Below are positions 4,558 to 29,279 of a stretch of DNA of 64,000 nucleotides, piece by piece. Each line of letters begins with the position of its first letter. Position 1 is the first letter of the stretch. Source of the stretch: Candidatus Aceula lacicola (GTDB lineage Bacteria; Omnitrophota; Gorgyraeia; Zapsychrales; Aceulaceae). The DNA lies in NCBI GenBank assembly GCA_030765785.1, contig JAVCCC010000032.1, positions 5,787 to 69,786 of the forward strand. The letters run 5' to 3'. Under the pieces are notes generated by a model that worked only from the letters and a program-made list of their open reading frames with translations, was not told the DNA's origin and searched no databases. The position numbers were made by a program, and so were the translations under genes.

Positions 4558-7500
4558 ATGATCAGTACATTCGAAGCGAGAAAATCAACTTTCTCTTATA
4601 AGGCACTTTGTGCGTTTGTCGCATTCGCTTTTTTTGCGACAATGGTTATTTTCCCTAATACAGCTCAGGCTCAAGGTGTGGCTAGTTTGCCGGCACCTGG
4701 AACTATGATCGGTATGACACCGGCATTTGCACCGCCAATTATTAAGGGTGTGCAGATTGATCCGCAGCATCCATTCCAGTTTAATTTTGTTCTTGATACT
4801 GGAGATGACCATGTCTCAGGCAAAAAGCTTGAACGCGAAGCCGACAAACTTATCAAATATTTCTTAGCTGCGATTACTGTTCCTGATGAAGATTTATGGG
4901 TGAACCTTTCTCCATATGAACAAGACCGCATCGTTCCAGAAGAATTTGGAAAAACAGAAATGGGACGTGATCTTTTGGCTCAGGATTATATTTTAAAACA
5001 ATTTACGGCATCCTTGATTTATCCTGAAGATGAGCTTGGAAAAACGTTCTGGGATCGAGTATACAAAAAAGCATATGAAAAGTATGGCACAACGGATATC
5101 CCTGTTAATACTTTTAACAAAGTATGGGTTATTCCTGAGACAGCCGTTGTTTATGAGCATGAAGGCACAAGCGCTTTTGTTGTTGAAAGACATCTAAAAG
5201 TTATGCTTGAAGAGGACTATCTTGCCTTATCGAATAATTTAAATAATGAAAAAATTGGAACAAGCCTTCAGGGTGAGGCTGAATCTAAAGATGTGAATAG
5301 TATTTCTTCTGAGATTGTTCGAGAAATTCTTATTCCAGAGATTGAGAAAGAAGTTAACTTTGGAAAGAATTTTGCTAACCTTCGCCAGATTTATAATGCT
5401 ATGATTTTATCAACTTGGTACAAAAGACAGTTGCGCGAAAGTGTTTTTGCTGGTGCGTATGCGAATAAAAATAAAGTTTCTGGTGTTGATATTGCCGATA
5501 AAGCGCAAGCGCAGAAAATTTATAATCAGTATTTGGAAGCGTTTAAAAAAGGTGTTTGCGACTATATTAAGGTAGAGCAAGATTCTCAAACGGGAAGAAA
5601 TATTCCAAGAAAATATTTTTCTGGTGGTTCGAAGCATGTTTCAAAAAATGTTCGTGTTAAAAAGAATTTATCGTCTTTGACATCAAGACAAGCAGGAGAA
5701 TTCAGCGCGAGCGCTGGACCTTTGGCTGTTGTTAAGGGTTTTGCGGATCCGGCTAACATTAAGTCGGCAGGAGAGAGAGCAGTTTTAGGATACAGAGGTG
5801 CAAAGGATGATGTATCGGGTTCTCCAATAGTTGTCGATGACATAGATGGTAAGGATGAGTACGTCCTTCAAGTAGGAAGTGAGGGAGTTTTTGTTAAGGA
5901 TAAAAATTGGGTTCAATTTATAGGAAAGAGATTGAGGCCAATTCAAGCATTAGAGAAAGCAATCGATGTTTTTCTCTCTAAGCATTTTTCTAAAATAGAT
6001 TATGAAAGTATAGTTTTGCAATGGGATCGAGCTCAAACTCGATTAGATGGGGTTGATGTTGTCTCATTGTCTCAAGGGAAGATAGATCAGATATCGGAAT
6101 CGTTAAAAAAGGCATCAAAACGCAGTCAGAGTCTAGACACAGATTTTAAGATTATGATGGATAATTTAAAATTTTATCAAGATCGACTTGAAAAAATAGT
6201 TGGAGACCTTGCGTATGAGGTGAGTAATGGCAAGAAAGTTTCTGAAATAAATTCGAACGATCTTTTGAGAAAGGCCAGAGAAGGGGAAAAAGATACAAAA
6301 ATTTTAGATGAATCTGGTTTGACAAAATTATTCAGGAAAGTAAGTGGATTTTTAAGGCTTGAACAATTTACAGCGATTAATGTCGCTGTTTCTCTTCATA
6401 GTATGCTTTTAAAATTTGCTGGAACAGATGCTCCTGGTTGGCAGTGGGCTTTGTGGGCGTTAGCTACCTTTTCTGTCACAACCATTATTCATGAGTTAGG
6501 TCACTGGTATCAAGGTCAGAAATCTAACACTCTTACATTGGAAGAAATTCCTTTTAAGATTATAAGAGATTCAGGAAAAATAAAGGATTCTTTGCTACTA
6601 AAATATTACAAGAATCAATCTGTTCTAAAACAATCGATTGAGGAGAAGATGCTTAAAGATAAGCTTTTTAAAGAAGAAGTTGAAGATTTTGTGAAAGGCC
6701 TTGAGTTTAAAAGTGTTTCTGGAGATAAACTGATTTTTGATGTTAGCGAAATTGATAAAAAACTTTCTGATGGAAAGAAAGAAAAGTTTTTTGAATATTT
6801 TGAAAAAGATAGCTGGCTGATGGATTCTAAAAAAGAGCACGAAATGCGAACAGGTATGGCTAATTATTGGGAAAAGACAAAATTGATTAACCGTTTAAAA
6901 AGACATGATATTATTAAGGGGTCAAAGTGGATTCCAGAATGGCTGACTTTTAACGCGCGAGGCTTGCAAGTTAATTTTAGCCGAACAACTTTGCAAAATC
7001 TTGCCTATGGGCCTCTTTTTAGCGCTTGGATGACAGGGGGAGCGATAGCGGTTTTGTTGGCTTCTCTTATTGTTCCTGGACTAGCCACAACATGGGTTCC
7101 TGGACTAGCGCTAACAACAGTTGTCATTGGGCTTTTTAATTCCATTTTTGCTGATAATTCAGCTCTTTTAGATTTAATAAAAGAAAAAAGGTTGGACCGA
7201 GCACGTAAAAAGGCAGTTAAGGCAGGTGTTGGCAAAGAAGAAGCAAAAACCATAGATGTTGATTTGCTTGTTAAGGGTAAAGATGGCAAGATGAGATCTT
7301 GGAGCATGATGAATCCTGAAGATATCAGAAGCATTGTGCGATATGATGAAAAAAAGAATGTTTATGTTCTCCCAGCAATGATTCATTGTAACGTTATTAA
7401 TGGCGGAAAACATTCAGACGGAAGCGCAACATTTCAGGAGTGGATGTATTTGCCTCTTGGGTCTGAGAGTGTTGATGAGGCCTTAGAAAAATTAACTGAC

Positions 7501-9246
7501 CTTTTTGATGCATTAAAACGAATTGTTCGAGCTGAATATGGGACATTGGGGGAAATGGGGAAAGAAGGAGGAATTGCCCCTATTTTACCAAACCAGAGAG
7601 AAATCCTTGTTTTGATGCGTAAAGCAGGAGAATTGTGCGGTTATGTTGAAGGAAAAGATTTTGCATATTCGCTTGATATTGCGGCTAGTGAGATGGAAAA
7701 TGCGGCAGAAAAAGCGGGTGAGCCGGGACAGTATCGAATGTTCAAAGACAGAAATCCAGTGAATTTACAGACGGATCAATTAATAGACGTATATGGAGAA
7801 TTAATAAAAGAATTTTGTATTATTTCTATTGAGGATCCTTTTCACGAAGATGATGTGGAAGGGTATACGAAATTTACAAAACTTTACGGAAAGAACGGAA
7901 CACGTCTTGAGGGTCTTCGTTTTCCGATTCAGAAAAAAGGGATACAGATTGTTTTAGATGACATCTCTGCGACGAATCCTATGTTAATTTACGCATTGAA
8001 ACAGGCAGGATGCGGAAATTCTATTTTGATTAAGCTTAATCAAATAGGGACGGTAACTGAAACGATTAATGCCATCAAAATTACGGAAGGCAATGGCGTT
8101 CCATTATTGCAAAAGGAAAAAGATGGTAAAGAATATGCTGATTCCTATGGAACAAAAATTTCACATCGTTCTGGGGAAACTGAGGACACCCTTCTTGGAG
8201 ATTTTGTTGTTGGAATGGGTGGTGGCCAGCTTAAAACCGGATCGGTAAATCGATCAGATAGAATGGGAAAATACAATCGATTGAAGAAAATAGCACATTT
8301 TTTAGAAGCGAATGTGGCCAAGAAGCGATCGTTATTAATTAAGCCGAAAGGTGAAATTATCATTACGGATGCTTTGGCAACAGATACCTATGATTCTAAT
8401 GGGAATCCGACAGTAACGCTTGAACTTTATTTTTCTAATGGCAGTAAGCAGGAAGCAACGGTTCCTTCTGGAGCTTCAACTGGTAAAAGAGAAGCTCAAG
8501 AATTGCGAGATGGTGACAAAGAACACCATCGAGGAAAAGGAACTAAGAAAGCGACAAAAAATGCTGCAGACTTGGCGGAGAAAATATTAGTAGGAAAGAA
8601 GCTTTCAGAGCTGAACCAATTTGATGTTGATCAGGCTATGCTGAGAGACGAGTTAGAAAAAGGGAAAGTAAACAATTATCAAGAAATTAAAAAAAGAGGA
8701 AAAAATCCTATTATTAATTTAGAGCGAGATGAATATTTAAATACGGTTGAGCAACAGCTTTATAAAACAGAGAATGGGGCTAATGCAATGTTGGCTGTGT
8801 CTATGGCGTTTGCGAGAGCTAAGGCATATTCTGAAGGACTTGAGCTATTTCAATATTTTGCCGAATTGAAGAAAGAGCCAATGAGGCAGGATGAATTGTA
8901 TGGTGTAAAGGTTCATTTTAATCCTCTTGATGCGAATGTTGTCTCCTCTGGAATACCTACAAATGTAAAAACATTAGATAGATCAGTATCTTTTCCACCT
9001 GTTGCCAGCGTTGGCGCAATCGACAACAATGAATCTCTTGGTGGTATTAGCATGAATTCTGGATTATTGGATCTTCAAATCAAGAGAGATAGCGCAGGTT
9101 CACCGCTTCCAATCAGTCAGCAACCGATTATGAATATGAATATTCAAGGGTTTAAATTTAATATTATGACAATTACGCCAATTACAACAACGTTGCCGAT
9201 GTATTTGGGGATGAGTGATGGTGATTTGTCGATTGCAATGTTGTAA
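4558..9246 (+). CDS. Giant secreted/membrane protein (1562 aa). Signal peptide, shared N-domain (~4860-5640), HELGHW zinc-peptidase-like motif in a hydrophobic segment (6490-6504), two TM helices (~7000-7170), circularly permuted enolase (~7357-8875), shared C-terminal tail (~9040-9246)
   Basis: RBS aaaaaaggag 8 nt upstream of the ATG. N-terminal 'FVAFAFFATMVIFPNTAQAQ' reads as a signal peptide. Enolase signatures 'SILIKLNQIGT', 'ISHRSGETED' and 'GQLKTGSVNRSDR' precede 'DSNGNPTV..VPSGASTGKREAQELRDGD..NGANAMLAVSMA'. Confidence 0.8.
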   Translation: MISTFEARKSTFSYKALCAFVAFAFFATMVIFPNTAQAQGVASLPAPGTMIGMTPAFAPPIIKGVQIDPQHPFQFNFVLDTGDDHVSGKKLEREADKLIKYFLAAITVPDEDLWVNLSPYEQDRIVPEEFGKTEMGRDLLAQDYILKQFTASLIYPEDELGKTFWDRVYKKAYEKYGTTDIPVNTFNKVWVIPETAVVYEHEGTSAFVVERHLKVMLEEDYLALSNNLNNEKIGTSLQGEAESKDVNSISSEIVREILIPEIEKEVNFGKNFANLRQIYNAMILSTWYKRQLRESVFAGAYANKNKVSGVDIADKAQAQKIYNQYLEAFKKGVCDYIKVEQDSQTGRNIPRKYFSGGSKHVSKNVRVKKNLSSLTSRQAGEFSASAGPLAVVKGFADPANIKSAGERAVLGYRGAKDDVSGSPIVVDDIDGKDEYVLQVGSEGVFVKDKNWVQFIGKRLRPIQALEKAIDVFLSKHFSKIDYESIVLQWDRAQTRLDGVDVVSLSQGKIDQISESLKKASKRSQSLDTDFKIMMDNLKFYQDRLEKIVGDLAYEVSNGKKVSEINSNDLLRKAREGEKDTKILDESGLTKLFRKVSGFLRLEQFTAINVAVSLHSMLLKFAGTDAPGWQWALWALATFSVTTIIHELGHWYQGQKSNTLTLEEIPFKIIRDSGKIKDSLLLKYYKNQSVLKQSIEEKMLKDKLFKEEVEDFVKGLEFKSVSGDKLIFDVSEIDKKLSDGKKEKFFEYFEKDSWLMDSKKEHEMRTGMANYWEKTKLINRLKRHDIIKGSKWIPEWLTFNARGLQVNFSRTTLQNLAYGPLFSAWMTGGAIAVLLASLIVPGLATTWVPGLALTTVVIGLFNSIFADNSALLDLIKEKRLDRARKKAVKAGVGKEEAKTIDVDLLVKGKDGKMRSWSMMNPEDIRSIVRYDEKKNVYVLPAMIHCNVINGGKHSDGSATFQEWMYLPLGSESVDEALEKLTDLFDALKRIVRAEYGTLGEMGKEGGIAPILPNQREILVLMRKAGELCGYVEGKDFAYSLDIAASEMENAAEKAGEPGQYRMFKDRNPVNLQTDQLIDVYGELIKEFCIISIEDPFHEDDVEGYTKFTKLYGKNGTRLEGLRFPIQKKGIQIVLDDISATNPMLIYALKQAGCGNSILIKLNQIGTVTETINAIKITEGNGVPLLQKEKDGKEYADSYGTKISHRSGETEDTLLGDFVVGMGGGQLKTGSVNRSDRMGKYNRLKKIAHFLEANVAKKRSLLIKPKGEIIITDALATDTYDSNGNPTVTLELYFSNGSKQEATVPSGASTGKREAQELRDGDKEHHRGKGTKKATKNAADLAEKILVGKKLSELNQFDVDQAMLRDELEKGKVNNYQEIKKRGKNPIINLERDEYLNTVEQQLYKTENGANAMLAVSMAFARAKAYSEGLELFQYFAELKKEPMRQDELYGVKVHFNPLDANVVSSGIPTNVKTLDRSVSFPPVASVGAIDNNESLGGISMNSGLLDLQIKRDSAGSPLPISQQPIMNMNIQGFKFNIMTITPITTTLPMYLGMSDGDLSIAML
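7357..8875 (+). other. Circularly permuted enolase module: C-terminal TIM-barrel domain (7357-~8320) followed by the N-terminal capping domain (~8350-8875). Metal ligands and catalytic residues apparently conserved
   Basis: Barrel start 'YVLPAMIHCNVINGGKHSD' compared with E. coli 'SMPVPMMNIINGGEHAD'. 'SLDIAASE', 'SIEDPF' and 'VLDDI' match Mg ligands D246, E290 and D317. K345, H373 and K396 equivalents are present. N-domain Ser in 'SGASTGKREA'. Confidence 0.7.
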
Positions 9247-15090: not shown

Positions 15091-16142
15091 AGAAATATCT
15101 TTATGAACTTATGACAGATCAGCGTAAAGATTGGCTAGCGCAAATCTTTAAGATCGTTTTGTTGGTTTTGTCTTTTTTGTATTGGGCGGGAATCAAAATA
15201 ATTTTATGGATGTATCGTCAAAAGATTTTAAAGACAAAACGGTTGCCAAAGCCTGTTATTAGCGTCGGCAACATTACCATTGGTGGTGTTGGCAAAACGC
15301 CTTTAGTTCGTTTGATTGCAACAATGTTTCAATATCACAGCCTTAAGCCTGTGATATTGACTCGAGGTTATATGGCAAAGGGTACGGGTTCGGACGAAGC
15401 TGAGATGCTTAGAAGCCAACTAAAGGATGTTCCTATTTTAGTCGGAGCTAATCGATATCAGGTAGCTCAAGATTTTTTAAGAGCGAACAGAGCCGATATT
15501 TTTATTTTAGATGATGGATTTCAGCATTGGTCGCTTCTTAGAAATTTTAACATTGTTGCGATTGACTCAACGCGTCCGTTTGGAAATCTTTTTTTAATTC
15601 CGCGTGGAATTTTGCGTGAACCAATGGATTCATTGAAGCGAGCAGATATTTTTATTCTGACAAAAACAGATTTGGGAAAAGAGAATATAAAGAAAATTTG
15701 CCAGAAGATAAAGCAATTTCAGCCTGCAGCGGTTATTGTAGAGACAGTACATAATCCTGTGGCTTTAATTAATATTAACAATTCTGGAGACAGACGGGAC
15801 ACGTCTGCTATTTCGGGTCATTTGGCATGTCTTTTTTCAGGCATCGGAGATCCTCGATCTTTTGAAGGAAGCGTCGAATCTCTCAGGGTTGATATTAAAA
15901 AACATTTTATTTTTATGGATCATCATTGTTATTCTAAAGATGACATTGAGCGCATTGTTCATTATTGTCGAGTTCACAATATTAAAACATTAATTACAAC
16001 ACAAAAAGATGCTGCTCGATTGCCTGGGTTATTGCATTTATTCTCAAGGGAATTGAATGTTTTTATTTTGGAAATTGAGATGAAAATTTTGAAAGGAGAG
16101 CAAGATCTTGAAAAGCGAATTTTCTATTTTCTGGATCGTTAA
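15087..16142 (+). CDS. lpxK: Tetraacyldisaccharide 4'-kinase
   Basis: 'SVGNITIGGVGKTPLV' P-loop. Confidence 0.85.
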   Translation: MKKYLYELMTDQRKDWLAQIFKIVLLVLSFLYWAGIKIILWMYRQKILKTKRLPKPVISVGNITIGGVGKTPLVRLIATMFQYHSLKPVILTRGYMAKGTGSDEAEMLRSQLKDVPILVGANRYQVAQDFLRANRADIFILDDGFQHWSLLRNFNIVAIDSTRPFGNLFLIPRGILREPMDSLKRADIFILTKTDLGKENIKKICQKIKQFQPAAVIVETVHNPVALININNSGDRRDTSAISGHLACLFSGIGDPRSFEGSVESLRVDIKKHFIFMDHHCYSKDDIERIVHYCRVHNIKTLITTQKDAARLPGLLHLFSRELNVFILEIEMKILKGEQDLEKRIFYFLDR

Positions 16143-18063
16143 GATTTTTGCTGCGTTTGTGCGTTGGCTTCCTGTGTCAGTTGCGCTTTGGTTGGGGCGT
16201 GTGATTGGGACGATAGGGTATCTTATAGATCATCGACATAAATCGCTTGCATATGCAAATTTAAAGATTGCATTTTCTTGTCAAAAAAAGACAAGCGAAA
16301 TTAAAGGTATTTTAAAGAAGGTTTTTCAGAATTATGCGCAGAATTTTATTGAACTTTTGCGTCTTCCAAAGATTGACCCACATCAATATATTACGCTTGA
16401 GGGAAAAGAACATGTTGATGAAGCTTTGAAAAAGAACAAAGGACTTATCTTGCTTGCAATGCATTTTGGCAGTTGGGAGCTTTGTAACTTTATGAGCAAG
16501 CTTTTAGGTCATCCATATCGAGTTGTTGTCAATCCTCAAAAACGACATCAAAGGCTTAATGATTTGCTTAATTCTTATCGTCAGAAGGCAGGGGCAAGCC
16601 TTGTTGAGCCAGGTTCGGGAACGCGTGATTTTGTAAAAGCTTTGCGTAATAATGAAATTGTTGGAATGGTTGTTGACCAAGGAGGAAAAACAGGAAGTCT
16701 TACTAAATTCTTTGGAAGGGAATCTTCGATGTCTTTAGGCGCGATTAAAATGGCGTTAAAGCTAGGAGTCCCTGTTTGTTTTTGTACGATTGTCCGTGAT
16801 CCTAAGGCTGCGCATCATAAGCTTAAAGTTTTTTCGCCGTCTCAGTTTGAGATAAGCGGTAATAGAGATCAAGATATCGCTGATAGTTTAAATAAAGTTG
16901 TTACTCAGATGGAAAAAGTTATTGTTAAATATCCTTCTGAGTATATGTGGTTTTATAAAATTTGGAAGTATTCAAAAGAATCCACCATTGTTGTCTTGAG
17001 CGATCAAAAATTTGGACATTTAAATCAGTCAAGGGCATTTTCTGAGAAAATTAAAAAGGCATTAGCGGAGCGATCTATTCGATGCCATATCGAGGTCATC
17101 GATGTTGAGTTTAAAGATGAAGCAAAAAAAACAATGTTTGCAGCACTTAGCTTTGCTATTCATGAAAAGACCTCACAAGGACGTCTTCGATATTTAAAAT
17201 GGTTCTTAAAGCGTAAATCGTTTTTAGAGGTAATGAGCGTTAAAGGGGATTTTGTTGTATCATGCGGTTCGTCTATTGCAGGTGTTAATTATTTTCTATC
17301 TCAGGATTATCGTGCTAAAAGCATTGTTCTTCAGAAGCCAGGAATTTTAAGTTTTAAACGGTTTGATCTTATTCTTTTGCCAAAACATGATAAGAAAAGT
17401 TCTCAGCAGTATGGAGAAAATGTTGTCTTTACGAATTTGACGCCGAACCTTATTGATCAAGAGTATTTGCAAAGCCAAGCAAGCAGGTTGATGGCAAAGT
17501 TTCCAGACCTTCATCATCGCAAAAGTCCAACCATTGGCCTAATGATTGGTGGAGAATCAAAAAATTATTTTATATCAAATATTCAGGTTGAAAGTATTGT
17601 TGAGCAGGTCAAAGAGGTGGTTGAACAACGGCAAGGTCGAATTTTAGCAACAACTTCAAGGCGAACTCAAAAAGATGTTGAGATTGTCGTTAAAGCAGGA
17701 TTGTCTGATTTTAATCAATGTCCGTTTTTGGTTATCGCGACTGAAAATAATGTGCCAGAAGCGGTTGGTGGTATTTTAGGAATTTCTGACATTGTTATTA
17801 TTTCCTCAGACAGCATCTCTATGATTTCAGAAGCTGTTAGCTCTGGAAAAACTGTTATTGTATTTGATGCAGAAAAGAGAAAAGTTAATTACAGAGGAAA
17901 GCATGAAGTTTTTGCTGAGAATTTGTTTAAACAAGAACATATTTTGAGAGCGAAAACATATGAAGTTGGATTGGTTTTAAATAACGTCATTGAAAATAAT
18001 ATTAAAACTAAGCCTATTTGCGATCAACAAGTTTTGTTTGAGGCTGCACGCCAAATTATATGA
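16108..18063 (+). CDS. lpxL: Lipid A lauroyl/myristoyl acyltransferase (LpxL/HtrB family) fused to a C-terminal DUF1022/ELM1-like domain. TTG start with a strong SD
   Basis: N-terminal half matches the LpxL family ('MHFGSWEL', 'MVVDQGG'). C-terminal half 'LSDQKFGHLNQSRAFSE..IGLMIGGESKNY' resembles the DUF1022 N-terminal motif. SD 'gaaaggagag' is 8 nt before ttg16108. Confidence 0.6.
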   Translation: MKSEFSIFWIVKIFAAFVRWLPVSVALWLGRVIGTIGYLIDHRHKSLAYANLKIAFSCQKKTSEIKGILKKVFQNYAQNFIELLRLPKIDPHQYITLEGKEHVDEALKKNKGLILLAMHFGSWELCNFMSKLLGHPYRVVVNPQKRHQRLNDLLNSYRQKAGASLVEPGSGTRDFVKALRNNEIVGMVVDQGGKTGSLTKFFGRESSMSLGAIKMALKLGVPVCFCTIVRDPKAAHHKLKVFSPSQFEISGNRDQDIADSLNKVVTQMEKVIVKYPSEYMWFYKIWKYSKESTIVVLSDQKFGHLNQSRAFSEKIKKALAERSIRCHIEVIDVEFKDEAKKTMFAALSFAIHEKTSQGRLRYLKWFLKRKSFLEVMSVKGDFVVSCGSSIAGVNYFLSQDYRAKSIVLQKPGILSFKRFDLILLPKHDKKSSQQYGENVVFTNLTPNLIDQEYLQSQASRLMAKFPDLHHRKSPTIGLMIGGESKNYFISNIQVESIVEQVKEVVEQRQGRILATTSRRTQKDVEIVVKAGLSDFNQCPFLVIATENNVPEAVGGILGISDIVIISSDSISMISEAVSSGKTVIVFDAEKRKVNYRGKHEVFAENLFKQEHILRAKTYEVGLVLNNVIENNIKTKPICDQQVLFEAARQII

Positions 18064-20165
18064 GAATACTTCAAATTCTTCCAGAATTGCATGTCGGCGG
18101 TGTTGAAACAGGAACTGTTGACTTGTCTCGTTATTTAGTTGAACATGGACATCAGTCTTTTGTTGTGTCTAATGGAGGCGATCTTGTTTCAGATTTAGAA
18201 AAAACAGGGGGAAAACATTTTAAGCTTCCTGTGCATAAGAAAAATCTTTGGACTGCAATTTATTCAATTAAAAAGCTTAAAGAAATTTTTGTTGAAGAAA
18301 AAATTGATTTGGTTCATGTGCGTTCGCGCGTTCCGGGATGGATTGCATATTGGGCGTGTCGGAAAACAGGAACGCCTTTTTTAACAACATGCCATGGACA
18401 CTATTCAAAGCATTTGTTTAGTCGTGTGATGGGGTGGAGTAAGTTTGTTATTGTTCCAAGTCAAGTCATTGGGCAGCACATGATTCAAGATTTTGGTGTT
18501 TCTTCAGAAAGTATTCGCTGTATCCCCAGGAGCGTGGACCTTCGTAAGTTTAATATTCCCCATAAGAGCATTTCTGGAGGATCAGAATACGTTGTTTCAA
18601 TTGTGGGCCGTATTACCCCGCTAAAGGGGCATGAATATTTTTTAAAATCTATGGCGCGTGTTGTTCGGCACTTTCCGTATATTAAGATTTGGATCATCGG
18701 CGATGCTCCAGCAAAGAAGCAGTCGTACAAAGAAGGACTTGTTGCGTTAACTAGACGTCTTGGACTTTCGGATCATGTTGAATTTTTAGGGAATCGTCGA
18801 GACATTCCAGAGCTTTTATCAAAAACAGATGTTTTGGTTCTTTCGACAGTGACACAAGAATCGTTTGGTCGCGTGATTGTCGAGGCCCAAGCGGCAGGCG
18901 TCCCTGTTGTTGCGACAAAAGTAGGAGGCGTTGTTGAAATTATTGATCATGAAAAAACAGGACTTTTAGTTTTACCAAGGCATCCAGAAGAAATGGCTGA
19001 TGCCGTTGTCCGATTGTTGGAAAATAAGGAGCTATCTGCGCAATTTGTTGCTAATGCAAAACAAAAAATATTATCGAATTATACGCTTGAACATATGGCG
19101 AGCCAAACGCTTGAAGTTTATGATGAGCTTTTAAAGAAAATTAACATTCTTGTTATAAAGATTAGTGCAATTGGTGATGTTATTCTTGCGACACCTTCTT
19201 TGCGTGCATTGAGAGAAAAATACCCTTTTGCTAAAATATATTGTCTTGTCGGAAGACAGGCTCGAGAGATTTTGCAGCGATGTCCATATATTGATGAGTT
19301 GATTGTTTATGATACAAAAGATAAGAATAGAGGGTGGTGGGGTATTTGGAAGCTCGCGAGGAAATTGAGAAAATATAAGTTAGACAAAACGATTGATTTT
19401 CAAAATAATCGAAAAAGTCACTTATTAGCATTTTTAAGTTTTTGTCCGCAGCGATATGGGTACAAGAATAAGAAGTGGGGGCATCTTTTGTCGAACGGCA
19501 TTTTAGACGACGATGGTCCGATGCCAGCCGTTGCGCATCAGTTTCGTATCCTAAGAGAGATTGGCATTTCTCCTCAGAATCAATTTCTGGAATTGTGGCC
19601 ATCCAAAGAGGATCAAAGAGAGGTTAAGGAACTTTTGCAGGGACAATGGGTCAATGAAGATGCCCAGCTTGTTGGGATTCATTTGGCTGCATCAGAGCGT
19701 TGGGCAACAAAATCTTGGGGCCTTGAATATATTGCACAACTTTGCGATATGCTGGCCGCGCAAAATATTCGAACTGTCATTACTGGATCAGAAAAAGATA
19801 TTCCTTTGATGCAGAGACTTTCGAAAATTACAAAGGCAAAACCAGTTGATTGCGTTGGCAAAACAAGTGTTCTGCAGCTCGCTGCACTTATCAAGCGTTG
19901 TTGTGTTTACATTGCGCCTGATTCAGCACCGCTTCACATTGCAGCAGCCGTACGAACACCGTTTATTGCATTGTTTGGTCCAACGGATCCAGCGCGCCAT
20001 ATGCCACCTGCAAAAGAGTTTAGAATGCTTTTTCAACGCGTTGAATGCGCTCCATGCTATCAGGGTCAGTGTCCAATCCACACTCATGTATGTATGGAGA
20101 AAATAACACCAGATCAGGTTTTAGAAGAAGTCGAACAGTTGATGCAAATACGAGCAAGATTATGA
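18060..20165 (+). CDS. Bifunctional glycosyltransferase: N-terminal GT4 domain fused to a C-terminal GT9 (ADP-heptose:LPS heptosyltransferase) domain
   Basis: N-terminal half 'VRSRVPGW..GRITPLKG..E(x7)E..FGRVIVEAQAAGVPVVATKVGG' fits GT4. C-terminal half 'ILVIKISAIGDVILATPSLRAL' and 'APDSAPLHIAAAVRTPFIALFGPT' fits GT9. Confidence 0.7.
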   Translation: MRILQILPELHVGGVETGTVDLSRYLVEHGHQSFVVSNGGDLVSDLEKTGGKHFKLPVHKKNLWTAIYSIKKLKEIFVEEKIDLVHVRSRVPGWIAYWACRKTGTPFLTTCHGHYSKHLFSRVMGWSKFVIVPSQVIGQHMIQDFGVSSESIRCIPRSVDLRKFNIPHKSISGGSEYVVSIVGRITPLKGHEYFLKSMARVVRHFPYIKIWIIGDAPAKKQSYKEGLVALTRRLGLSDHVEFLGNRRDIPELLSKTDVLVLSTVTQESFGRVIVEAQAAGVPVVATKVGGVVEIIDHEKTGLLVLPRHPEEMADAVVRLLENKELSAQFVANAKQKILSNYTLEHMASQTLEVYDELLKKINILVIKISAIGDVILATPSLRALREKYPFAKIYCLVGRQAREILQRCPYIDELIVYDTKDKNRGWWGIWKLARKLRKYKLDKTIDFQNNRKSHLLAFLSFCPQRYGYKNKKWGHLLSNGILDDDGPMPAVAHQFRILREIGISPQNQFLELWPSKEDQREVKELLQGQWVNEDAQLVGIHLAASERWATKSWGLEYIAQLCDMLAAQNIRTVITGSEKDIPLMQRLSKITKAKPVDCVGKTSVLQLAALIKRCCVYIAPDSAPLHIAAAVRTPFIALFGPTDPARHMPPAKEFRMLFQRVECAPCYQGQCPIHTHVCMEKITPDQVLEEVEQLMQIRARL

Positions 20166-24829: not shown

Positions 24830-25783
24830 ATGAGTCAAGAAAAAGTTCTTATTGTTGAAGATGAAAAGGAGTTGAGAGTCTTGATTGCTCAGTCGATTGA
24901 GAAGCTTGATTACCAGGTGTATCAAGCAGGTGATGGTGAAGAGGCTCTTAAGGTTGCAGAGCAAGTTCTGCCAGATCTCATCATCACGGATGTTGTCATT
25001 CCAAAGAAAGATGGAAATCAGCTTCTTAAGGATATTCAAAAAACAGCGTTTGGTAAAAATATTCCTTTTATTATTATGACAGCAAGAGCTGGAATGCGGG
25101 ATTATTTTGAAGTTTTAGAGGGGGTTTGTGGGTTTTTGGAGAAACCGTTTAAAATGAAAGAATTAGTCTTAATGATAGAGGAAATTTTTACCGGGAATTC
25201 AAAGCGGGGTGGCGCGAGGTTCAAGAATAAAAAGAATATTAAGACTAAAATTGATAAAGAAAAGATTGCGATTAAAGACGAGGCTATTGTTAAAAGTGAG
25301 ATTCTTAAACACGAAGAAAATGTTAGTCATGATGATCATTCGTTATCTTTAGGAGAAAAGAAGGAAGGCGTTAAGGAAAATAAAAAGGAAGAGTGTTTTT
25401 CTGAGGATTTTTTTATTGGTAAAAGAAAAATTCTTGTTCTTGAGAATGAGAAAAATGTTTTTCAGTATTTTAAAGCATTTTTTCCAGAAGATGCGTATGC
25501 TATAGAGCTTGTAACTTCGTCAGATCATATCGCTGGTCGCGCAAAAGAATTTATGCCTGATTTGATCATTCTGAAACATATTGTTGGTCAGGCAAATAGT
25601 GAAATCGTTGCAAATTATTTAAGAGAAACTTTTGCTCTTCAATGGACACCGATTATTATTTACGATAGAATTATTGATCGCGTTTCTGGCGATCAGAGCA
25701 TGCCAGCGCATTCCAAAGAATTTAGTCTAAACTCGGAAGGCAAAGAATTAATCAAAAGAATTAAAGAATTGCTTGGCGTATAG
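24830..25783 (+). CDS. Response-regulator receiver protein: a canonical REC domain followed by a degenerate second REC-like domain, with no output domain
   Basis: 'VLIVEDEKELR..DLIITDVVIPKKDG..FLEKPFKMKEL'. The second half 'ILVLENEKNV..DLIILKH' lacks the phospho-acceptor Asp. Confidence 0.65.
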   Translation: MSQEKVLIVEDEKELRVLIAQSIEKLDYQVYQAGDGEEALKVAEQVLPDLIITDVVIPKKDGNQLLKDIQKTAFGKNIPFIIMTARAGMRDYFEVLEGVCGFLEKPFKMKELVLMIEEIFTGNSKRGGARFKNKKNIKTKIDKEKIAIKDEAIVKSEILKHEENVSHDDHSLSLGEKKEGVKENKKEECFSEDFFIGKRKILVLENEKNVFQYFKAFFPEDAYAIELVTSSDHIAGRAKEFMPDLIILKHIVGQANSEIVANYLRETFALQWTPIIIYDRIIDRVSGDQSMPAHSKEFSLNSEGKELIKRIKELLGV

Positions 25784-25802
25784 CTTTTTAATCGATAGGA
25801 GA

Positions 25803-26540
25803 ATGATGAGTATTGTTATTCATTTTTTAGGGGTTTTTGTTCTTATGGCTTTTTGGGCAGCTGTTTTGTCTTTTGTTCCAATCACTTTTTATCTTCTTGC
25901 AAAAAATCCACCAATTCAAAAAATTGATCGAACTCGTTCAAAAATGATTTTTATTTTAAATCAAGAATCGTATCTTAAAAAAGCTCGAAAATTACGAATA
26001 AAGACAATTTTGCTTACTTATACACTTTCTTTAACGATCCTTTTTGGTGTACATTCTTTTAATTTAAGATCTCATGGCACAGGAATTGGTCCATTTGATA
26101 TTTTGTCAGCTTTGTCTATTGTTTTCTTCGGGTTTTCAATTTTTTCCTATGTGCCAATTTCAGTTTATTTGGCGCTGCGGAATCCTTGGAAAGATAAAGA
26201 TGAAGGAGTCTGTTTAACTAAAATATATATTAGCTATGGTGTGGCGATTTTGTGTTTTTCAATCGCTTTTGCTTTATTTTGGCTAAAAAAACATAGCATC
26301 TCTTTCGGACTATTTCAGATCGTAGCTCCCTTAGGCTACATGCTTCTTTCCTCTGTTTTTGTGGCGTATTTGCCAATTCTTTTGTATATTTCTTTACGTA
26401 TTGGAAATATTTCTCGTCAGAAGAAAATACATCCAAATATAATTTTTATTATTTACAGTCTTAGTTTTTTATTATCTTCTGCGGTATATGTTGCTTCTTG
26501 GATCAAGTCTCGAGGAGCAGGGTTAGAGAATCTTTTTTAA
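25803..26540 (+). CDS. Hypothetical polytopic membrane protein
   Basis: Multiple hydrophobic helices; no recognised motif. Confidence 0.4.
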   Translation: MMSIVIHFLGVFVLMAFWAAVLSFVPITFYLLAKNPPIQKIDRTRSKMIFILNQESYLKKARKLRIKTILLTYTLSLTILFGVHSFNLRSHGTGIGPFDILSALSIVFFGFSIFSYVPISVYLALRNPWKDKDEGVCLTKIYISYGVAILCFSIAFALFWLKKHSISFGLFQIVAPLGYMLLSSVFVAYLPILLYISLRIGNISRQKKIHPNIIFIIYSLSFLLSSAVYVASWIKSRGAGLENLF

Positions 26541-26553
26541 AAAGGAGAAAACA

Positions 26554-27798
26554 ATGTTAAAAAAAAGAATTTATTTTGGAATTTTTAAAGTGGTGGCAGT
26601 ATTTTTATTTTTTGCGATTGCTCTATTTTTTGTCGCGGCTAATGTGTCTGCACAGGATAAGTCTGATATTGATCTTTTCGTCAAAGGAAATAATCGTTTT
26701 GCTTTGAATCTTTACGGGGAACTTAAAAGCGATGAAGGAAATTTGTTCCTCTCACCTTATAGCATTTCAACAGCGCTTGCCATGACATTTGAAGGGGCTG
26801 CTGGGGAAACCCAAAGGCAAATGGCTGATGTTTTGCATTTTGATATGTCGAAAAATCGGGTAGGGCGAGCATTTCTTTATTTAGCGCAAGGTTTATCAGC
26901 CTCGGCAAATTCAGATGGATACGAGCTTAATATTGCGAATGCGCTTTGGGGAGAAAAAACCTATACGTTTTTACCAGAGTTTCTTAATCAAACAAAGGAA
27001 TTTTATGGTGGAGCGCTTCGTAATCTTGATTTTTTAAATGAAACGGAGAAGTCACGTCAGATAATTAATGCTTGGGTTGAAGAGAAAACAAAAAATAAGA
27101 TTAAGAATCTCATCGGACCAGGAGTGCTTAGTCCTGCAACAAGACTTGTTTTGACTAACGCTATTTATTTTAAGGGAGATTGGATGACTCCTTTTAAGAA
27201 TTCAGATACATTTGACAGACTGTTTTATTTTTTATCAGGCGAGAGTGCCTCTGTGCCAACAATGAATCAAATGGCACATTTTAATTATGCAGAGGATGGA
27301 GATGTTCAAGTTTTGGAAATGCCGTATAAGGGAAATCGTCTTTCTATGGTGATTATTTTATCGAAGGAAAGAGATGGCATCAGTGCATTAGAGCAGAAGT
27401 TGACTGGTCAGAATTTAGCAAAATGGATTTCGAGTCTGAAATCGCAAGATGTGAATGTTTCTTTGCCAAAGTTTGAGGCAACAGTTGAATTTTCTTTAGC
27501 GAAGACTTTAGAGGGAATGGGCATGAGAGATGCGTTCTTACCTGTAGCCGATTTTTCTGGTATGAGTGGGAATAAAGATCTTTTCATTAGCGATGTGATT
27601 CATAAAGCATTTGTTAAAGTTGATGAAAAAGGCACAGAGGCAGCAGCAGCAACGGCTGTTGTAATGACTTTTAAGGGAGTGATGATGCCGCAGGAAACAA
27701 AGAAATTTACAGCAGATCATTCTTTTATTTTTATGATTCGAGACATGCAAACTAAAAGTATTCTATTTATTGGTCGCATTATGGATCCGAGGAGCTAA
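26554..27798 (+). CDS. Serpin (serine protease inhibitor) with signal peptide; copy 1 of a tandem pair
   Basis: RBS aaaggag. Hinge 'GTEAAAATAVV' and C-terminal 'FTADHSFIFMIRD..ILFIGRIMDP'. Confidence 0.85.
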   Translation: MLKKRIYFGIFKVVAVFLFFAIALFFVAANVSAQDKSDIDLFVKGNNRFALNLYGELKSDEGNLFLSPYSISTALAMTFEGAAGETQRQMADVLHFDMSKNRVGRAFLYLAQGLSASANSDGYELNIANALWGEKTYTFLPEFLNQTKEFYGGALRNLDFLNETEKSRQIINAWVEEKTKNKIKNLIGPGVLSPATRLVLTNAIYFKGDWMTPFKNSDTFDRLFYFLSGESASVPTMNQMAHFNYAEDGDVQVLEMPYKGNRLSMVIILSKERDGISALEQKLTGQNLAKWISSLKSQDVNVSLPKFEATVEFSLAKTLEGMGMRDAFLPVADFSGMSGNKDLFISDVIHKAFVKVDEKGTEAAAATAVVMTFKGVMMPQETKKFTADHSFIFMIRDMQTKSILFIGRIMDPRS

Positions 27799-27811
27799 AA
27801 AGGAGAGGACA

Positions 27812-29053
27812 ATGTTAAGAAAGACAATTTATTTCTTTGTATTTAGAAAATTTGCAGCATTTTTATTTTTTACGATTGCTTTATTCTTTGTCGCGGCTAA
27901 TGTGTCTGCACAGGATAAGCTGGATATTGATCTTCTCGTTAAAGGTAATAATCGTTTTGCTTTGAATCTTTATGGAGAGCTTAAAAGTGATGAAGGAAAT
28001 TTGTTTTTTTCACCTTATAGCATTTCAACAGCATTGGCTATGACATTTCAAGGCACTGAAGGCCAGACACAAAGAGAGATGGCTGATGTTTTGCATTTTG
28101 ATATGTCGAAAAATAGGGTAGGGCGAGCATTTCTTTATTTAGCGCAAGGTTTATCAGCCTCGGCAAATTCAGATGGATACGAGCTTAATATTGCCAATGC
28201 GCTTTGGGGAGAAAAAACCTATACGTTTTTACCAGAGTTTCTTAATCAAACAAAAAAGTTTTATGATGGCGGGCTTCATTCAGTTGATCTTATAAATGAA
28301 CCTGAGAAAACACGTCAGGTAATCAATGCTTGGGTTGAGGAAAAAACAAAGAATAAAATTAAGGATCTTATTGGACCAGGGGTGCTTAGCTCTACAACAA
28401 GACTTGTTTTGACTAACGCTATTTATTTTAAGGGAGATTGGATGACTCCTTTTAAGAATTCAGATACATTTGACAGACTGTTTTATTTTTTATCAGGTGA
28501 TAACGCCCCTGTGTCAACAATGAACCAGACGGTACATTTTAATTATACAGAAGATGATGATGTCCAAGTTTTGGAAATGCCTTATAAAGGAGATCGCCTT
28601 TCTATGATGATTCTTTTGCCAAAGAAAAGAAATGGCATAAACGCATTAGAGCAGAAATTAACTGTCCAAAAAATAGAAAATTGGATTTCAAACCTAATCT
28701 TTCAGGAAGCAGATGTTTCTTTGCCAAAGTTTGAGACAACAGTTGAATTCTCATTAGCAGATATTTTGGAAAGAATGGGTATGAGAGATGCTTTCTCGGG
28801 TGCAGCTGATTTTTCAGGAATGACAGAAAACAAGGATCTTTTTATTGGTGCTGTTATTCACAAAGCATTTGTTAAGGTTGACGAAAAAGGAACAGAGGCA
28901 GCAGCAGCAACAGCAGTTGTGATGGAAAATTTGGCTATAATGCCACAAGATATTAAAAAATTTAACGCAGACCATCCATTTATCTTTATAATTCGAGATA
29001 TGCAAACTAAAAGTATTTTATTTATTGGTCGCATTATGGATCCGAGGAGTTAA
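27812..29053 (+). CDS. Serpin with signal peptide; copy 2 of the tandem pair, with a divergent reactive-centre loop
   Basis: RBS aaaaggagagg. ~80% aa identity to copy 1. RCL 'MENLAIMPQDIKK' compared with 'MTFKGVMMPQETKK'. Confidence 0.85.
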   Translation: MLRKTIYFFVFRKFAAFLFFTIALFFVAANVSAQDKLDIDLLVKGNNRFALNLYGELKSDEGNLFFSPYSISTALAMTFQGTEGQTQREMADVLHFDMSKNRVGRAFLYLAQGLSASANSDGYELNIANALWGEKTYTFLPEFLNQTKKFYDGGLHSVDLINEPEKTRQVINAWVEEKTKNKIKDLIGPGVLSSTTRLVLTNAIYFKGDWMTPFKNSDTFDRLFYFLSGDNAPVSTMNQTVHFNYTEDDDVQVLEMPYKGDRLSMMILLPKKRNGINALEQKLTVQKIENWISNLIFQEADVSLPKFETTVEFSLADILERMGMRDAFSGAADFSGMTENKDLFIGAVIHKAFVKVDEKGTEAAAATAVVMENLAIMPQDIKKFNADHPFIFIIRDMQTKSILFIGRIMDPRS

Positions 29054-29057
29054 GAAA

Positions 29058-29279
29058 ATGAGCAAAATTAATGAATTAATTGAATGGGATTTCTTAGGTT
29101 CACATTGTAGCCTTTATATAAAGCATTTTGTCGATGAAGAGGGAAAGAAGGGCGTGACCATGATTTTTGAAGATGTAACCAAGGAAAAAGTAACTGAAAT
29201 TGTGATTCCAGCGCGAAAATATCCAACATTTTTACGTATCATCAATGATGGCAATCGGTATTCAAATAGCATCATTTAG
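29058..29279 (+). CDS. Small hypothetical protein (73 aa) immediately downstream of the serpins
   Basis: ATG 5 nt after the serpin stop; no recognisable motif. Confidence 0.3.
   Translation: MSKINELIEWDFLGSHCSLYIKHFVDEEGKKGVTMIFEDVTKEKVTEIVIPARKYPTFLRIINDGNRYSNSII

What the first reader, a model, noticed from the sequence alone, without database searches (positions are those of the whole stretch)
26554..29053. Tandemly duplicated secreted serpins with diverged reactive-centre loops and gene-conversion-like identical tracts
Two signal-peptide serpins are about 80% identical. Long nucleotide runs are perfectly identical, for example 26868-26938 matches 28122-28192 (gcgagcatttctttatttagcgcaaggtttatcagcctcggcaaattcagatggatacgagcttaatattgc). 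In contrast the RCL/P1 region differs: 'AVVMTFKGVMMPQETKKFTADHS' compared with 'AVVMENLAIMPQDIKKFNADHP'. This is the classic signature of paralogs kept homogeneous by conversion while the protease-targeting loop diversifies. Bacterial serpins are uncommon, and a tandem pair embedded between LPS gene clusters is unusual.
Basis: seen in the sequence. Interest (0 to 1): 0.6.

Follow-up and report, generated by a model that had tools for sequence, protein, structure and literature searches.

The report
Tandem secreted serpin pair, mosaic identity
Two neighbouring genes in an Antarctic-lake bacterium encode near-twin protease inhibitors; parts of them have been copied onto each other, but their protease-baiting loops differ, which is well known in animals, scarcely described in bacteria, and otherwise ordinary.

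Summary
Window 26554-27798 and 27812-29053 (+) encode two intact, full-length serpins of Candidatus Aceula lacicola (Omnitrophota, Ace Lake MAG). They are 81% identical in protein and 84% in DNA. Each has an N-terminal signal sequence and a canonical inhibitory hinge.

Divergence is strongly mosaic. A 176-nt tract with 2 mismatches and a 103-nt tract with none have silent-site divergence of 0.04-0.08, against 0.50 elsewhere (P about 1e-10). This fits partial gene conversion after an old tandem duplication.

The reactive-centre core (P3-P2', TFK|GV against ENL|AI) has the densest nonsynonymous change in the gene (scan-corrected P 0.0003-0.01) and the only indel. The predicted P1 is Lys in A and Leu in B. 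One natural variant contig differs from the window at only two bases in 4.6 kb, both at P3/P2 of serpin A.

Local pN/pS (1.3) is not significant, so positive selection is not proven. The tracts do not flank the loop specifically.

Bacterial serpins are not uncommon: more than 8000 homologues were found. Tandem pairs or arrays with different loops occur in 5 of 80 sampled genomes, and two of them show the same mosaic.

Verdict: new member of a known kind, of modest interest.

The parts
26554..27798 (+). Serpin A coding sequence (414 aa; identical to NCBI MDP8264572.1, 'serpin family protein', Candidatus Aceula lacicola)
   Evidence: ORF. Pfam PF00079 E 2.2e-125, covering profile positions 2-370 of 370. 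Exact database match. Best solved relative is chloropin 8GXV, E 1.3e-98.
27812..29053 (+). Serpin B coding sequence (413 aa from the ATG at 27812; identical to NCBI MDP8264573.1)
   Evidence: ORF 27770-29053 with an internal ATG at 27812 preceded by AGGAG. Pfam PF00079 E 3.5e-126. Exact database match P0121.
26554..26652 (+). Predicted Sec signal sequence of serpin A (residues 1-33: MLKKR, a hydrophobic core, then VSA|QD)
   Evidence: Read from the sequence. It has a basic N-terminus; residues 13-29 have mean Kyte-Doolittle hydropathy 3.05; a V-S-A motif precedes Q34. No signal-peptide predictor was available, so cleavage is inferred.
27812..27910 (+). Predicted Sec signal sequence of serpin B (residues 1-33, same VSA|QD site)
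   Evidence: Inferred as for serpin A.
27625..27687 (+). Reactive-centre loop of serpin A, P17-P4' (EKGTEAAAATAVVMTFK|GVMM). Predicted P1 is Lys374, at 27673-27675.
   Evidence: The hinge matches the inhibitory consensus ExGTEAAAA. Lys374 aligns with Arg383 of chloropin, the P1 residue established by mass spectrometry (PMC10090351).
28883..28945 (+). Reactive-centre loop of serpin B, P17-P4' (EKGTEAAAATAVVMENL|AIMP). Predicted P1 is Leu374, at 28931-28933. The loop is one residue shorter on the primed side than in A.
   Evidence: Alignment of A and B, family alignment, sequence.
27667..27672 (+). Two polymorphic sites in serpin A's RCL. In contig L002, 27667 A>G changes P3 Thr to Ala and 27672 T>A changes P2 Phe to Leu.
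   Evidence: These are the only 2 differences in 4574 aligned bases between L002 (JGI sample 3300022864) and the window. The variant protein is P0124.
26821..26996 (+). Conversion-like tract 1, copy in A. It is 176 nt with 2 mismatches to 28079-28254 and contains the identical 36-, 79- and 59-nt runs.
   Evidence: pS is 0.078 over codons 90-148, against 0.497 outside the tracts. The tract spans a region that is among the most variable in the family alignment.
28079..28254 (+). Conversion-like tract 1, copy in B
27137..27239 (+). Conversion-like tract 2, copy in A. It is 103 nt and identical to 28395-28497.
   Evidence: pS is 0.043 over codons 194-229.
28395..28497 (+). Conversion-like tract 2, copy in B
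27745..27794 (+). Near-identical 3' end of A (50 nt, 1 mismatch to 29000-29049 in B). It may be a third short exchange tract.
27799..27811 (+). A-B spacer of 13 nt carrying B's ribosome-binding site (AAAGGAGAGGACA). It resembles the sequence before A (AAAGGAGAAAACA). The repeat unit is about 1258 nt, 26538-27801 and 27796-29057.
   Evidence: Sequence, self-alignment. No terminator-like site lies between the genes.
29058..29279 (+). orf73, a small ORF starting 4 nt after serpin B's stop codon. It is probably co-transcribed and its function is unknown.
   Evidence: No Pfam or NCBIfam match. Only 10 relatives among 1.84 billion representatives.

Best explanation
The locus encodes two functional, exported, inhibitory serpins that arose by an old head-to-tail duplication within the Aceula lineage. 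Each is expected to work by the standard serpin suicide-substrate mechanism. A target serine protease cleaves the exposed loop at P1-P1'. The loop then inserts into beta-sheet A and traps the protease as a covalent complex.

The two baits differ. Serpin A has P3-P1' Thr-Phe-Lys|Gly, a basic P1 like most close relatives, and should trap trypsin-like (Lys/Arg-specific) proteases. Serpin B has Glu-Asn-Leu|Ala and should trap chymotrypsin-, elastase- or subtilisin-like proteases. Together they would widen the range of foreign or self proteases neutralised in the periplasm or outside the cell. In that respect they resemble ecotin or chloropin.

After the duplication, at least two non-reciprocal recombination events (gene conversion between the direct repeats) re-homogenised internal segments. 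The loop-coding core accumulated the densest amino-acid-changing divergence and is still polymorphic in the lake population.

Shown here: the gene structure, family membership, hinge and P1 alignment, silent-site mosaic, RCL excess, and the population variant.

Inferred: export, inhibitory activity, target classes, co-transcription, and that the loop divergence was selected (I put this at about 0.55).
For: - Family and integrity. Both copies give full-length PF00079 matches. The best solved relative is the experimentally inhibitory bacterial serpin chloropin (PMC10090351). Both copies keep every invariant column of a 24-sequence family alignment, including the hinge EKGTEAAAAT. Whole-gene dN/dS is 0.18.
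- In-lineage duplication. A and B are 81% identical, while the next best of 5.8 billion proteins are 55-58% identical. G+C matches the flanks at 0.356-0.360.
- Conversion. pS is 0.078 and 0.043 in the two tracts against 0.497 elsewhere (Fisher P 8e-11). Permuting silent-identical codon runs gives P 0.0085 and 0.0006. Other stretches with identical amino acids, such as the hinge, have pS 0.36-0.7. Tract 1 covers a region that is highly variable in the family.
- RCL excess. There are 9.0 nonsynonymous differences in 5 codons, the top window of the gene, with permutation P 0.00025 (window of 5 codons) to about 0.01 (8-12 codons), plus the only indel. pN is 0.77 there against 0.08 in the rest of the mature protein.
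- Population. L002 differs from the window at only 2 of 4574 bases, both nonsynonymous, at P3 and P2 of serpin A.
- Generality. Tandem serpin pairs in a Bacillota MAG (L077) and a WOR-3 MAG (L018) show the same mosaic: 100% identical DNA blocks next to diverged blocks, with the RCL different.
Against: - No activity, export or expression data exist.
- Local pN/pS in the RCL core (1.29) is not significantly above 1, and the silent sites around it are saturated. Relaxed constraint therefore explains the loop divergence equally well.
- By simple amino-acid counts the RCL ties with three other patches.
- The RCL polymorphism rests on one contig from one sample.
- No sister-species orthologues were found, so conversion could not be tested phylogenetically.
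- All the sequences are short-read metagenome assemblies.
- No candidate target protease is encoded in the 64-kb window; only cytoplasmic ClpP and an M50 membrane protease are present.
Confidence: 0.8

Rival explanations
1. The loop difference is neutral drift. Outside the hinge and P1 context the RCL is weakly constrained, so an old duplicate pair simply saturates there. The two copies may be functionally redundant, or one may be drifting. The conversion tracts are real but unrelated to loop evolution.
For: pN/pS in the RCL core is 1.29 and not different from 1 (Fisher P 1.0). The whole 3' third of the gene is old, with pS 0.4-0.7. The RCL is the most variable window across the family in general. 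The signal-peptide core, a typically relaxed region, is the second most diverged window.
Against: Both loops keep canonical length and an inhibitory hinge. P1 changed class, from basic to aliphatic, rather than scattering. The only two polymorphisms in 4.6 kb of an otherwise invariant population hit P3 and P2. The same RCL-focused divergence appears in a 92-95% identical pair in another phylum (L018).
Confidence: 0.4
2. The identical tracts are an artefact of short-read metagenome assembly. Graph simplification would have merged two slightly different paralogous segments into one consensus that was then used twice.
For: Assemblies do struggle at these tracts. Contig L005 ends inside tract 1 of B. 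L087 begins 671 nt upstream of serpin B, inside serpin A. Fragment protein P0125 starts in tract 1 and P0122 starts just before tract 2. Two short contigs carry A/B hybrid genes that switch at identical runs.
Against: The same tandem sequence is recovered in JGI and ENA assemblies, on contigs up to 0.5 Mb. The two full or partial copies compared base by base, L004 and L005, match the window exactly. Single mismatches inside tract 1 are preserved. Merging would in any case require the segments to be nearly identical already.
Confidence: 0.05
3. The identical tracts reflect purifying selection on the sequence itself (protein plus codon usage, or an embedded nucleic-acid signal), not recombination.
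For: Tract 2 encodes the highly conserved s3A motif LVLTNAIYFKGDW.
Against: Other invariant protein segments, such as the hinge and s5A, show pS 0.36-0.7 between A and B. Tract 1 spans residues about 99-115, which rank among the most variable windows in the family, yet is identical in DNA. A shared signal needed at the same place in both genes has no obvious rationale.
Confidence: 0.05
4. The two genes were acquired separately or recently by horizontal transfer from another phylum, rather than by duplication in place.
For: The best outside hits are Sedimentisphaerales (Planctomycetota) at 54-58%, whereas the one Omnitrophota representative recovered is 50%. Relatives that share the upstream response-regulator and membrane-protein module lack serpins beside it.
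Against: A and B are far closer to each other (81%) than to anything else. They share the ribosome-binding-site context and form a head-to-tail unit of 1258 nt. Their composition equals the flanks. An ancient transfer of the single ancestor is not excluded, but it does not change the reading.
Confidence: 0.03

Closest known systems
Chloropin, the serpin of Chlorobium limicola (PDB 8GXV; PMC10090351)
   Same: It is the closest solved structure (E 1.3e-98). It is a bacterial serpin with a signal peptide. The hinge and RCL stem are identical (GTEAAAATAVVM) and the loop length is similar. Its P1 Arg383, verified by mass spectrometry, aligns with Lys374 of serpin A. Its proposed role is to neutralise environmental proteases.
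   Different: It is described as a single gene, not a pair. Serpin B has an aliphatic P1. Nothing is known here about DNA or heparin acceleration.
Siropins 1 and 2 of Eubacterium siraeum (PMC5127057)
   Same: These are two serpin paralogues in one bacterium. Their loops are more diverged than the rest of the protein (60-63% identity overall, 48% in the RCL). Both are experimentally inhibitory.
   Different: They are much more diverged, and one is intracellular. The paper does not mention adjacency or tandem arrangement ('adjacent' and 'tandem' occur 0 times), and no conversion tracts are reported. Their targets were tested only on human proteases.
Mammalian and insect serpin clusters with hypervariable reactive centres (Hill & Hastie 1987 and Ohta 1994, as cited in PMC3966226; SERPINB3/B4, PMC4136820; SERPINA tandem arrays, PMC12646145)
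   Same: [quoted passage not shown]
   Different: Those are eukaryotic, multi-exon and often large arrays, and selection has been shown statistically. Here there are two prokaryotic genes, probably in one operon, selection is not shown, and the conversion tracts lie away from the loop.
Other prokaryotic tandem serpin loci found here (L077 Bacillota MAG, L018 WOR-3 MAG, L029 Dehalococcoidales MAG with five copies)
   Same: They are head-to-tail serpin genes with a different RCL in each copy. L077 and L018 have blocks of 98-100% identical DNA next to diverged blocks.
   Different: They come from different phyla and are not orthologous to this pair. In L018 the loop is a true island of divergence in an otherwise nearly identical sequence, which is not the case here.
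Ecotin, the periplasmic serine-protease inhibitor of E. coli (from my own knowledge, not tested here)
   Same: The proposed role is the same: an exported inhibitor that protects the cell envelope of a diderm bacterium from exogenous serine proteases.
   Different: The fold and mechanism are unrelated. Ecotin is a reversible dimeric inhibitor with broad specificity from one protein, rather than two specialised suicide inhibitors.

Membership tests
Serpin superfamily (Pfam PF00079; MEROPS I4) | Full-length match to the serpin domain profile | tested here: met
   A scores E 2.2e-125 and B scores E 3.5e-126, both covering profile positions 2-370 of 370. There are 143 PDB serpin sequences at E<=1e-40.
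Serpin superfamily, inhibitory class | Hinge consensus P17-P9 ExGTEAAAA with small residues at P12-P9, which allows loop insertion | tested here: met
   Both copies read EKGTEAAAA. The consensus is as quoted in PMC10090351.
Serpin superfamily, inhibitory class | Loop of canonical length, with P1 17 residues after P17, aligned to an experimentally mapped scissile bond | tested here: met
   Lys374 of A aligns with chloropin Arg383, which was mapped by mass spectrometry. Leu374 of B occupies the same column.
Serpin superfamily, inhibitory class | Conserved shutter and breach residues, such as the S-P-x-S-I motif, the Asn of LTNAIYFKG and the His of IHKAF | tested here: met
   S67, P68, S70, I71, N202 and H350 are invariant in the 24-sequence alignment, which includes both copies. 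The mapping of these positions to shutter and breach comes from my own knowledge.
Serpin superfamily, inhibitory class | Formation of an SDS-stable covalent complex with a target protease | not testable with these tools
   This needs recombinant protein.
Exported (Sec-dependent) bacterial serpins | Cleavable N-terminal signal peptide | tested here: inconclusive
   The basic N-terminus, hydrophobic core and VSA|Q motif are visible, but no predictor was available. A long hydrophobic core could also act as a membrane anchor. Spence et al. report that most prokaryotic serpins carry N-terminal transport signals.
Paralogues undergoing gene conversion (concerted evolution) | Discrete tracts of near-identity at silent sites, bounded by sequence with high silent divergence | tested here: met
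   pS is 0.078 and 0.043 in the tracts against 0.497 outside. Fisher P is 8e-11 and run-length permutations give P 0.0085 and 0.0006.
Paralogues undergoing gene conversion (concerted evolution) | Phylogenetic incongruence: within tracts the paralogues group by species, outside tracts by orthology | not testable with these tools
   No orthologous pair was found. Nothing between 58% and 81% identity turned up among 5.8 billion proteins, and relatives of the flanking genes lack serpins.
Paralogues undergoing gene conversion (concerted evolution) | Recombinant forms observed in the population | tested here: inconclusive
   Two short contigs (L001, L003) carry a single A/B hybrid gene between the normal flanks. 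Both share a junction in the 26-nt identical run at gene positions 136-161, and L003 has further switches at the 79- and 103-nt runs. They could be real deletion or conversion products, or assembly chimeras. Each was seen only once.
Reactive-centre hypervariability under positive selection | Excess of nonsynonymous change in the RCL relative to the rest of the gene | tested here: met
   It is the top window of the gene: 9.0 nonsynonymous differences in 5 codons, scan-corrected P 0.00025-0.01, plus the only indel.
Reactive-centre hypervariability under positive selection | dN significantly greater than dS in the RCL | tested here: inconclusive
   pN is 0.77 and pS is 0.60 over 5 codons, a ratio of 1.29 with Fisher P 1.0. 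Two sequences give too few sites.

The most novel reading that the evidence does not exclude
This could be a prokaryotic counterpart of the mammalian serpin-cluster arms race. In a natural, otherwise clonal lake population of a possibly host-dependent Omnitrophota bacterium, the two serpin copies would still be recombining: the hybrid haplotypes would be real deletion or conversion products. The loop would be under ongoing diversifying selection, with the P3/P2 polymorphism as the only variation in 4.6 kb. The same regime would recur in tandem serpin arrays of unrelated phyla (WOR-3, Bacillota, Dehalococcoidales). That would make 'conversion plus RCL diversification' a general and undescribed feature of microbial protease-inhibitor warfare.
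Probability: 0.25. Interest if true: 0.55.

Novelty: new member of a known kind. Interest (0 to 1): 0.3.

Why it matters
Serpins and their loop-driven specificity are textbook material, and both genes are already auto-annotated as 'serpin family protein'. The modest added value is evolutionary.

The combination of tandem duplication, partial homogenisation and loop divergence is classical for animal serpin clusters. The papers I could search do not describe it for prokaryotes.

If the loop divergence proves adaptive, such pairs would be simple natural experiments. They could be used to read which protease classes microbes defend against in a community, and they would provide matched scaffolds for specificity engineering.

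Tried and rejected
1. Amino-acid-count sliding windows for an RCL excess. The RCL only ties with three other patches (P 0.17 for 8-residue windows). Only the nonsynonymous nucleotide count singles it out.
2. A scan of JGI metagenome contigs with the 26-mer shared by A and B, meant to collect all population variants. It gave 0 matches, so this lake is evidently not in that collection. Population data therefore came only from exact-protein look-ups.
3. A search for an orthologous pair in sister taxa through the upstream membrane protein. Relatives (43-58% identical) keep the response-regulator and membrane-protein module, but with no serpins and no LPS genes beside it. Neither dating nor a phylogenetic test of conversion was possible.
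4. Conserved neighbours of serpins in 80 other genomes. None was shared with this locus, so there is no operon-level clue to function.
5. Promoter and terminator scan. It found fewer promoter-like sites than in shuffled sequence and no terminator between the genes. It is uninformative beyond being consistent with co-transcription.
6. NCBIfam gave no model hit for the serpins, orf73 or the membrane protein.
7. A cognate protease in the window. None is present; there are only ClpP and an M50 protease.
8. Origin of the L002 RCL variant. I considered that it was copied from serpin B and rejected this. The first change coincides with B's base, but the second does not: B has T where the variant has A. 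The apparent 'B-type' labels came from the nucleotide alignment.
9. Structure prediction was not run. The tool returns no coordinates for mapping surface patches, and family membership was already unambiguous.
10. Literature. No paper in the library combines 'bacterial serpins', 'reactive center loop' and 'tandem'. The one paper holding both 'serpin' and 'Omnitrophota' is unrelated. The genome paper for this organism never mentions serpins. The 2021 superfamily phylogeny does not contain the words tandem, duplication, paralog or gene conversion.
Full report
**What is there.** Window 26554-27798 and 27812-29053, both on the + strand, hold two complete ORFs. They are separated by a 13-nt spacer that carries an AGGAG ribosome-binding site.
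- Both proteins (414 and 413 aa) match the Pfam serpin domain over its whole length, with E 2e-125 and 4e-126.
- Exact-sequence look-ups identify them as the adjacent NCBI proteins MDP8264572.1 and MDP8264573.1, 'serpin family protein', of Candidatus Aceula lacicola. This is an uncultured member of the phylum Omnitrophota, described from Ace Lake, Antarctica (PMC8542988). That paper does not mention serpins.
- The same tandem arrangement is 100% identical over 9.2 kb in an independent JGI assembly. Each serpin is present on 24 contigs read, up to 0.5 Mb long, from JGI and ENA assemblies. The gene pair is therefore not a one-off assembly accident.

**Check of the observation.**
- The proteins are 81.1% identical (335/413) and the genes 84.0%.
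- Perfectly identical runs of 103, 79, 59, 36, 33 and 31 nt exist. At 84% identity the longest run expected is about 30 nt, and a run of 103 has P of about 3e-6.
- The quoted loop peptides are correct.
- Both copies are intact, and the overall dN/dS is 0.18 (dS 0.56, dN 0.10).

**Mosaic divergence.** A codon-level sliding window shows two segments with almost no silent change. Codons about 90-148 have pS 0.078 and codons about 194-229 have pS 0.043. The rest of the gene has pS 0.497, rising to 0.7 in the 3' third.
- In window coordinates, tract 1 is 26821-26996 = 28079-28254 (176 nt, 2 mismatches). Tract 2 is 27137-27239 = 28395-28497 (103 nt, 0 mismatches). The last 50 nt of the genes differ at one base.
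- Silent differences are depleted in the tracts with Fisher P 8e-11.
- I restricted the analysis to codons whose amino acid is the same in both copies and permuted them. The longest and second-longest runs without a silent change (31 and 25 codons) then have P 0.0085 and 0.0006.
- Constraint does not explain this. Other invariant protein segments, such as the hinge and strand s5A, show pS 0.36-0.7. Tract 1 also spans residues about 99-115, among the most variable windows in a 24-sequence family alignment.
- The simplest reading is an old tandem duplication followed by at least two non-reciprocal exchanges between the direct repeats.
- The repeat unit is about 1258 nt (26538-27801 and 27796-29057). 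It includes the preceding stop codon and the ribosome-binding site.

**The loop.** Both copies have the inhibitory hinge EKGTEAAAAT. This matches the consensus ExGTEAAAA quoted for inhibitory serpins in PMC10090351.
- The closest solved structure is chloropin of Chlorobium limicola (8GXV, E 1.3e-98). It is a secreted bacterial serpin whose P1, Arg383, was mapped by mass spectrometry.
- Lys374 of serpin A aligns with that arginine, and Leu374 of serpin B occupies the same column. A is therefore ...VVM-T-F-K|G-V-M-M-P and B is ...VVM-E-N-L|A-I-M-P. B is one residue shorter on the primed side.
- Close relatives mostly carry Arg, Lys or Thr at this position, often preceded by Leu. A therefore looks ancestral-like and B derived.
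- Is the loop more diverged than the rest? Counting amino-acid differences, it only ties with three other patches: residues 154-161, residues 294-301 and the signal-peptide core.
- Counting nonsynonymous nucleotide differences, codons 372-376 are the top window of the gene. They hold 9.0 differences in 5 codons, with permutation P for the maximum of 0.00025 for 5-codon windows and about 0.01 for 8-12 codons. They also adjoin the only indel.
- pN there is 0.77, against 0.08 for the rest of the mature protein. Local pS is 0.60, so pN/pS is 1.29 and not significantly above 1.
- The loop excess is real. Positive selection is not demonstrated by this pair alone.

**Population evidence.** The 90%-identity clusters of the two proteins contain few variants.
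- Contig L002 (JGI sample 3300022864) matches the window at 4572 of 4574 bases. The two differences are 27667 A>G and 27672 T>A, which change P3 Thr to Ala and P2 Phe to Leu in serpin A.
- If two changes fell at random in 4.6 kb, both would land in the 24-nt loop core with probability of about 3e-5. If they count as a single event, the probability is about 0.5%. These figures are my arithmetic.
- The resulting Ala-Leu-Lys resembles the family's common xLK/xLR pattern.
- This is a single contig, so it is suggestive only.
- Two short contigs, L001 (ENA, 2.6 kb) and L003 (JGI, 2.0 kb), carry one hybrid serpin between the normal upstream and downstream genes, with flanks 100% identical to the window.
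- Both switch from A-type to B-type within the same 26-nt identical run, at gene positions 136-161. L003 then switches back within the 79-nt run and forward again within the 103-nt run.
- Other contigs break in or near the identical tracts, which shows that assemblers have trouble here.
- The hybrids may therefore be assembly chimeras. The shared junction at a run too short for large k-mers leaves room for a real recombinant haplotype. Only reads can decide.

**Context.** All large ORFs in the 64-kb window are on the + strand.
- Upstream lie waaA, lpxK, a lipid A acyltransferase fusion, glycosyltransferases and family-9 heptosyltransferase genes. Then come a PilZ protein, a response regulator and a 244-aa membrane protein.
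- Downstream lie orf73 (starting 4 nt after B's stop), an hldE-type kinase, kdsB, kdsA, kdsD, kdsC, lptC/A-like and lptB-like genes, then tig and clpP.
- The response-regulator and membrane-protein pair recurs in related contigs in quite different neighbourhoods, without serpins or LPS genes.
- None of the neighbours accompanies serpins in 80 other genomes.
- G+C equals the flanks.
- The placement is lineage-specific, and I draw no functional conclusion from it.
- No secreted serine protease is encoded in the window.

**How common is this?** The search returned its maximum of 8000 proteins at E<=1e-30. In species-representative genomes, 575 of the first 600 pattern matches encode relatives. 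They span Planctomycetota, Acidobacteriota, Chloroflexota, Verrucomicrobiota, Omnitrophota, archaea and others at 42-54% identity. Bacterial serpins are not uncommon.
- Five of the 80 loci kept have two or more adjacent serpins.
- L029 (Dehalococcoidales) has five in a row, each with a different loop.
- L077 (Bacillota) has about 600 nt of 100% identical DNA followed by 50-80% identity, and different loops.
- L018 (WOR-3) is 98-100% identical except around the loop.
- In eukaryotes it is classical: reactive-centre hypervariability together with gene conversion (PMC3966226), SERPINB3/B4 (PMC4136820) and SERPINA arrays (PMC12646145).
- For bacteria, the nearest published parallel I found is the siropin 1/2 pair of Eubacterium siraeum, with 60-63% identity overall and 48% in the loop.
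- Searches of the library found no description of tandem prokaryotic serpins with conversion tracts.

**Mechanism proposed.** Both proteins are exported through the Sec pathway. This is inferred from the basic N-terminus, the hydrophobic core and the VSA|QD site. They would then act as suicide inhibitors. A would trap Lys/Arg-specific serine proteases, and B would trap enzymes that prefer an aliphatic P1, such as chymotrypsin-, elastase- or subtilisin-like proteases. Together they would protect the envelope or secreted proteins in a protease-rich anoxic water column. Omnitrophota have been proposed to be predators or parasites (PMC10066038), so proteases of a host or prey are another possible target. 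The genes are probably co-transcribed, together with orf73. Everything beyond the sequence features is inference.

**Verdict.** This is a new member of a well-known protein family, showing a well-known evolutionary pattern that is simply under-described in prokaryotes. Interest is modest at 0.3. The more novel reading is active recombination plus loop-directed selection in a natural bacterial population, recurrent across phyla. I give it about 0.25 probability.

Noticed in passing
window 29058-29279 (+): orf73 starts 4 nt after serpin B's stop codon. It has no Pfam or NCBIfam match and only 10 relatives among 1.84 billion representative proteins. The same roughly 40-65-residue module also occurs 12 times in a 2494-aa protein (P0136) and 5 times in a 612-aa protein (P0140).
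   Followed up: partly
window 24830-26540 (+); L088-L093: A 305-317-aa response regulator followed by a 244-251-aa multi-pass membrane protein with no family match forms a conserved two-gene module in related contigs. It sits in unrelated neighbourhoods and never has serpins beside it.
   Followed up: partly
window 4558-9246 (+): This 1562-aa ORF matches enolase domains only in its C-terminal part. The best-scoring stretches are in an unusual order: Enolase_C at 936-1250 comes before Enolase_N at 1269-1363. About 900 N-terminal residues are unassigned.
   Followed up: no
window 24-4202 (+): This 1392-aa ORF has PPDK_N and PEP-utilizers domains only at residues 879-1304. The first roughly 870 residues have no family match.
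   Followed up: no
window 1-64000: Nearly all ORFs of at least 120 aa lie on the + strand; the few minus-strand entries are embedded in + strand genes. GC skew is strongly positive throughout (0.13-0.36), which is extreme strand bias over 64 kb.
   Followed up: no
window 16108-20165 (+): There are two fused envelope-biosynthesis genes. One joins a lipid A acyltransferase to an ELM1-like domain (651 aa). The other joins a family-4 glycosyltransferase to a family-9 heptosyltransferase (701 aa).
   Followed up: no
L029 3080-9978 (Dehalococcoidales MAG DAOUFJ010000001.1): Five serpin genes lie head to tail. They are 50-66% identical to one another, and each has a different reactive-centre loop.
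   Followed up: partly
L077 713-3537 (Bacillota MAG) and L018 2-3361 (WOR-3 MAG): These tandem serpin pairs have blocks of 98-100% identical DNA. In L077 the 3' half is diverged. In L018 divergence is confined almost entirely to the loop (YISEVILFPL against LTSVAEPTPP).
   Followed up: partly
P0003 (690 aa, ENA contig of 3.57 Mb): This predicted protein consists of a partial serpin followed by a linker and a complete second serpin. It may be a fused or mis-called tandem pair.
   Followed up: no
L005 end (window 28197); L087 start (inside serpin A); fragment proteins P0125 and P0122: Several independent assemblies break in or near the identical tracts shared by the two serpins. This shows that the tracts act as assembly repeats.
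   Followed up: yes
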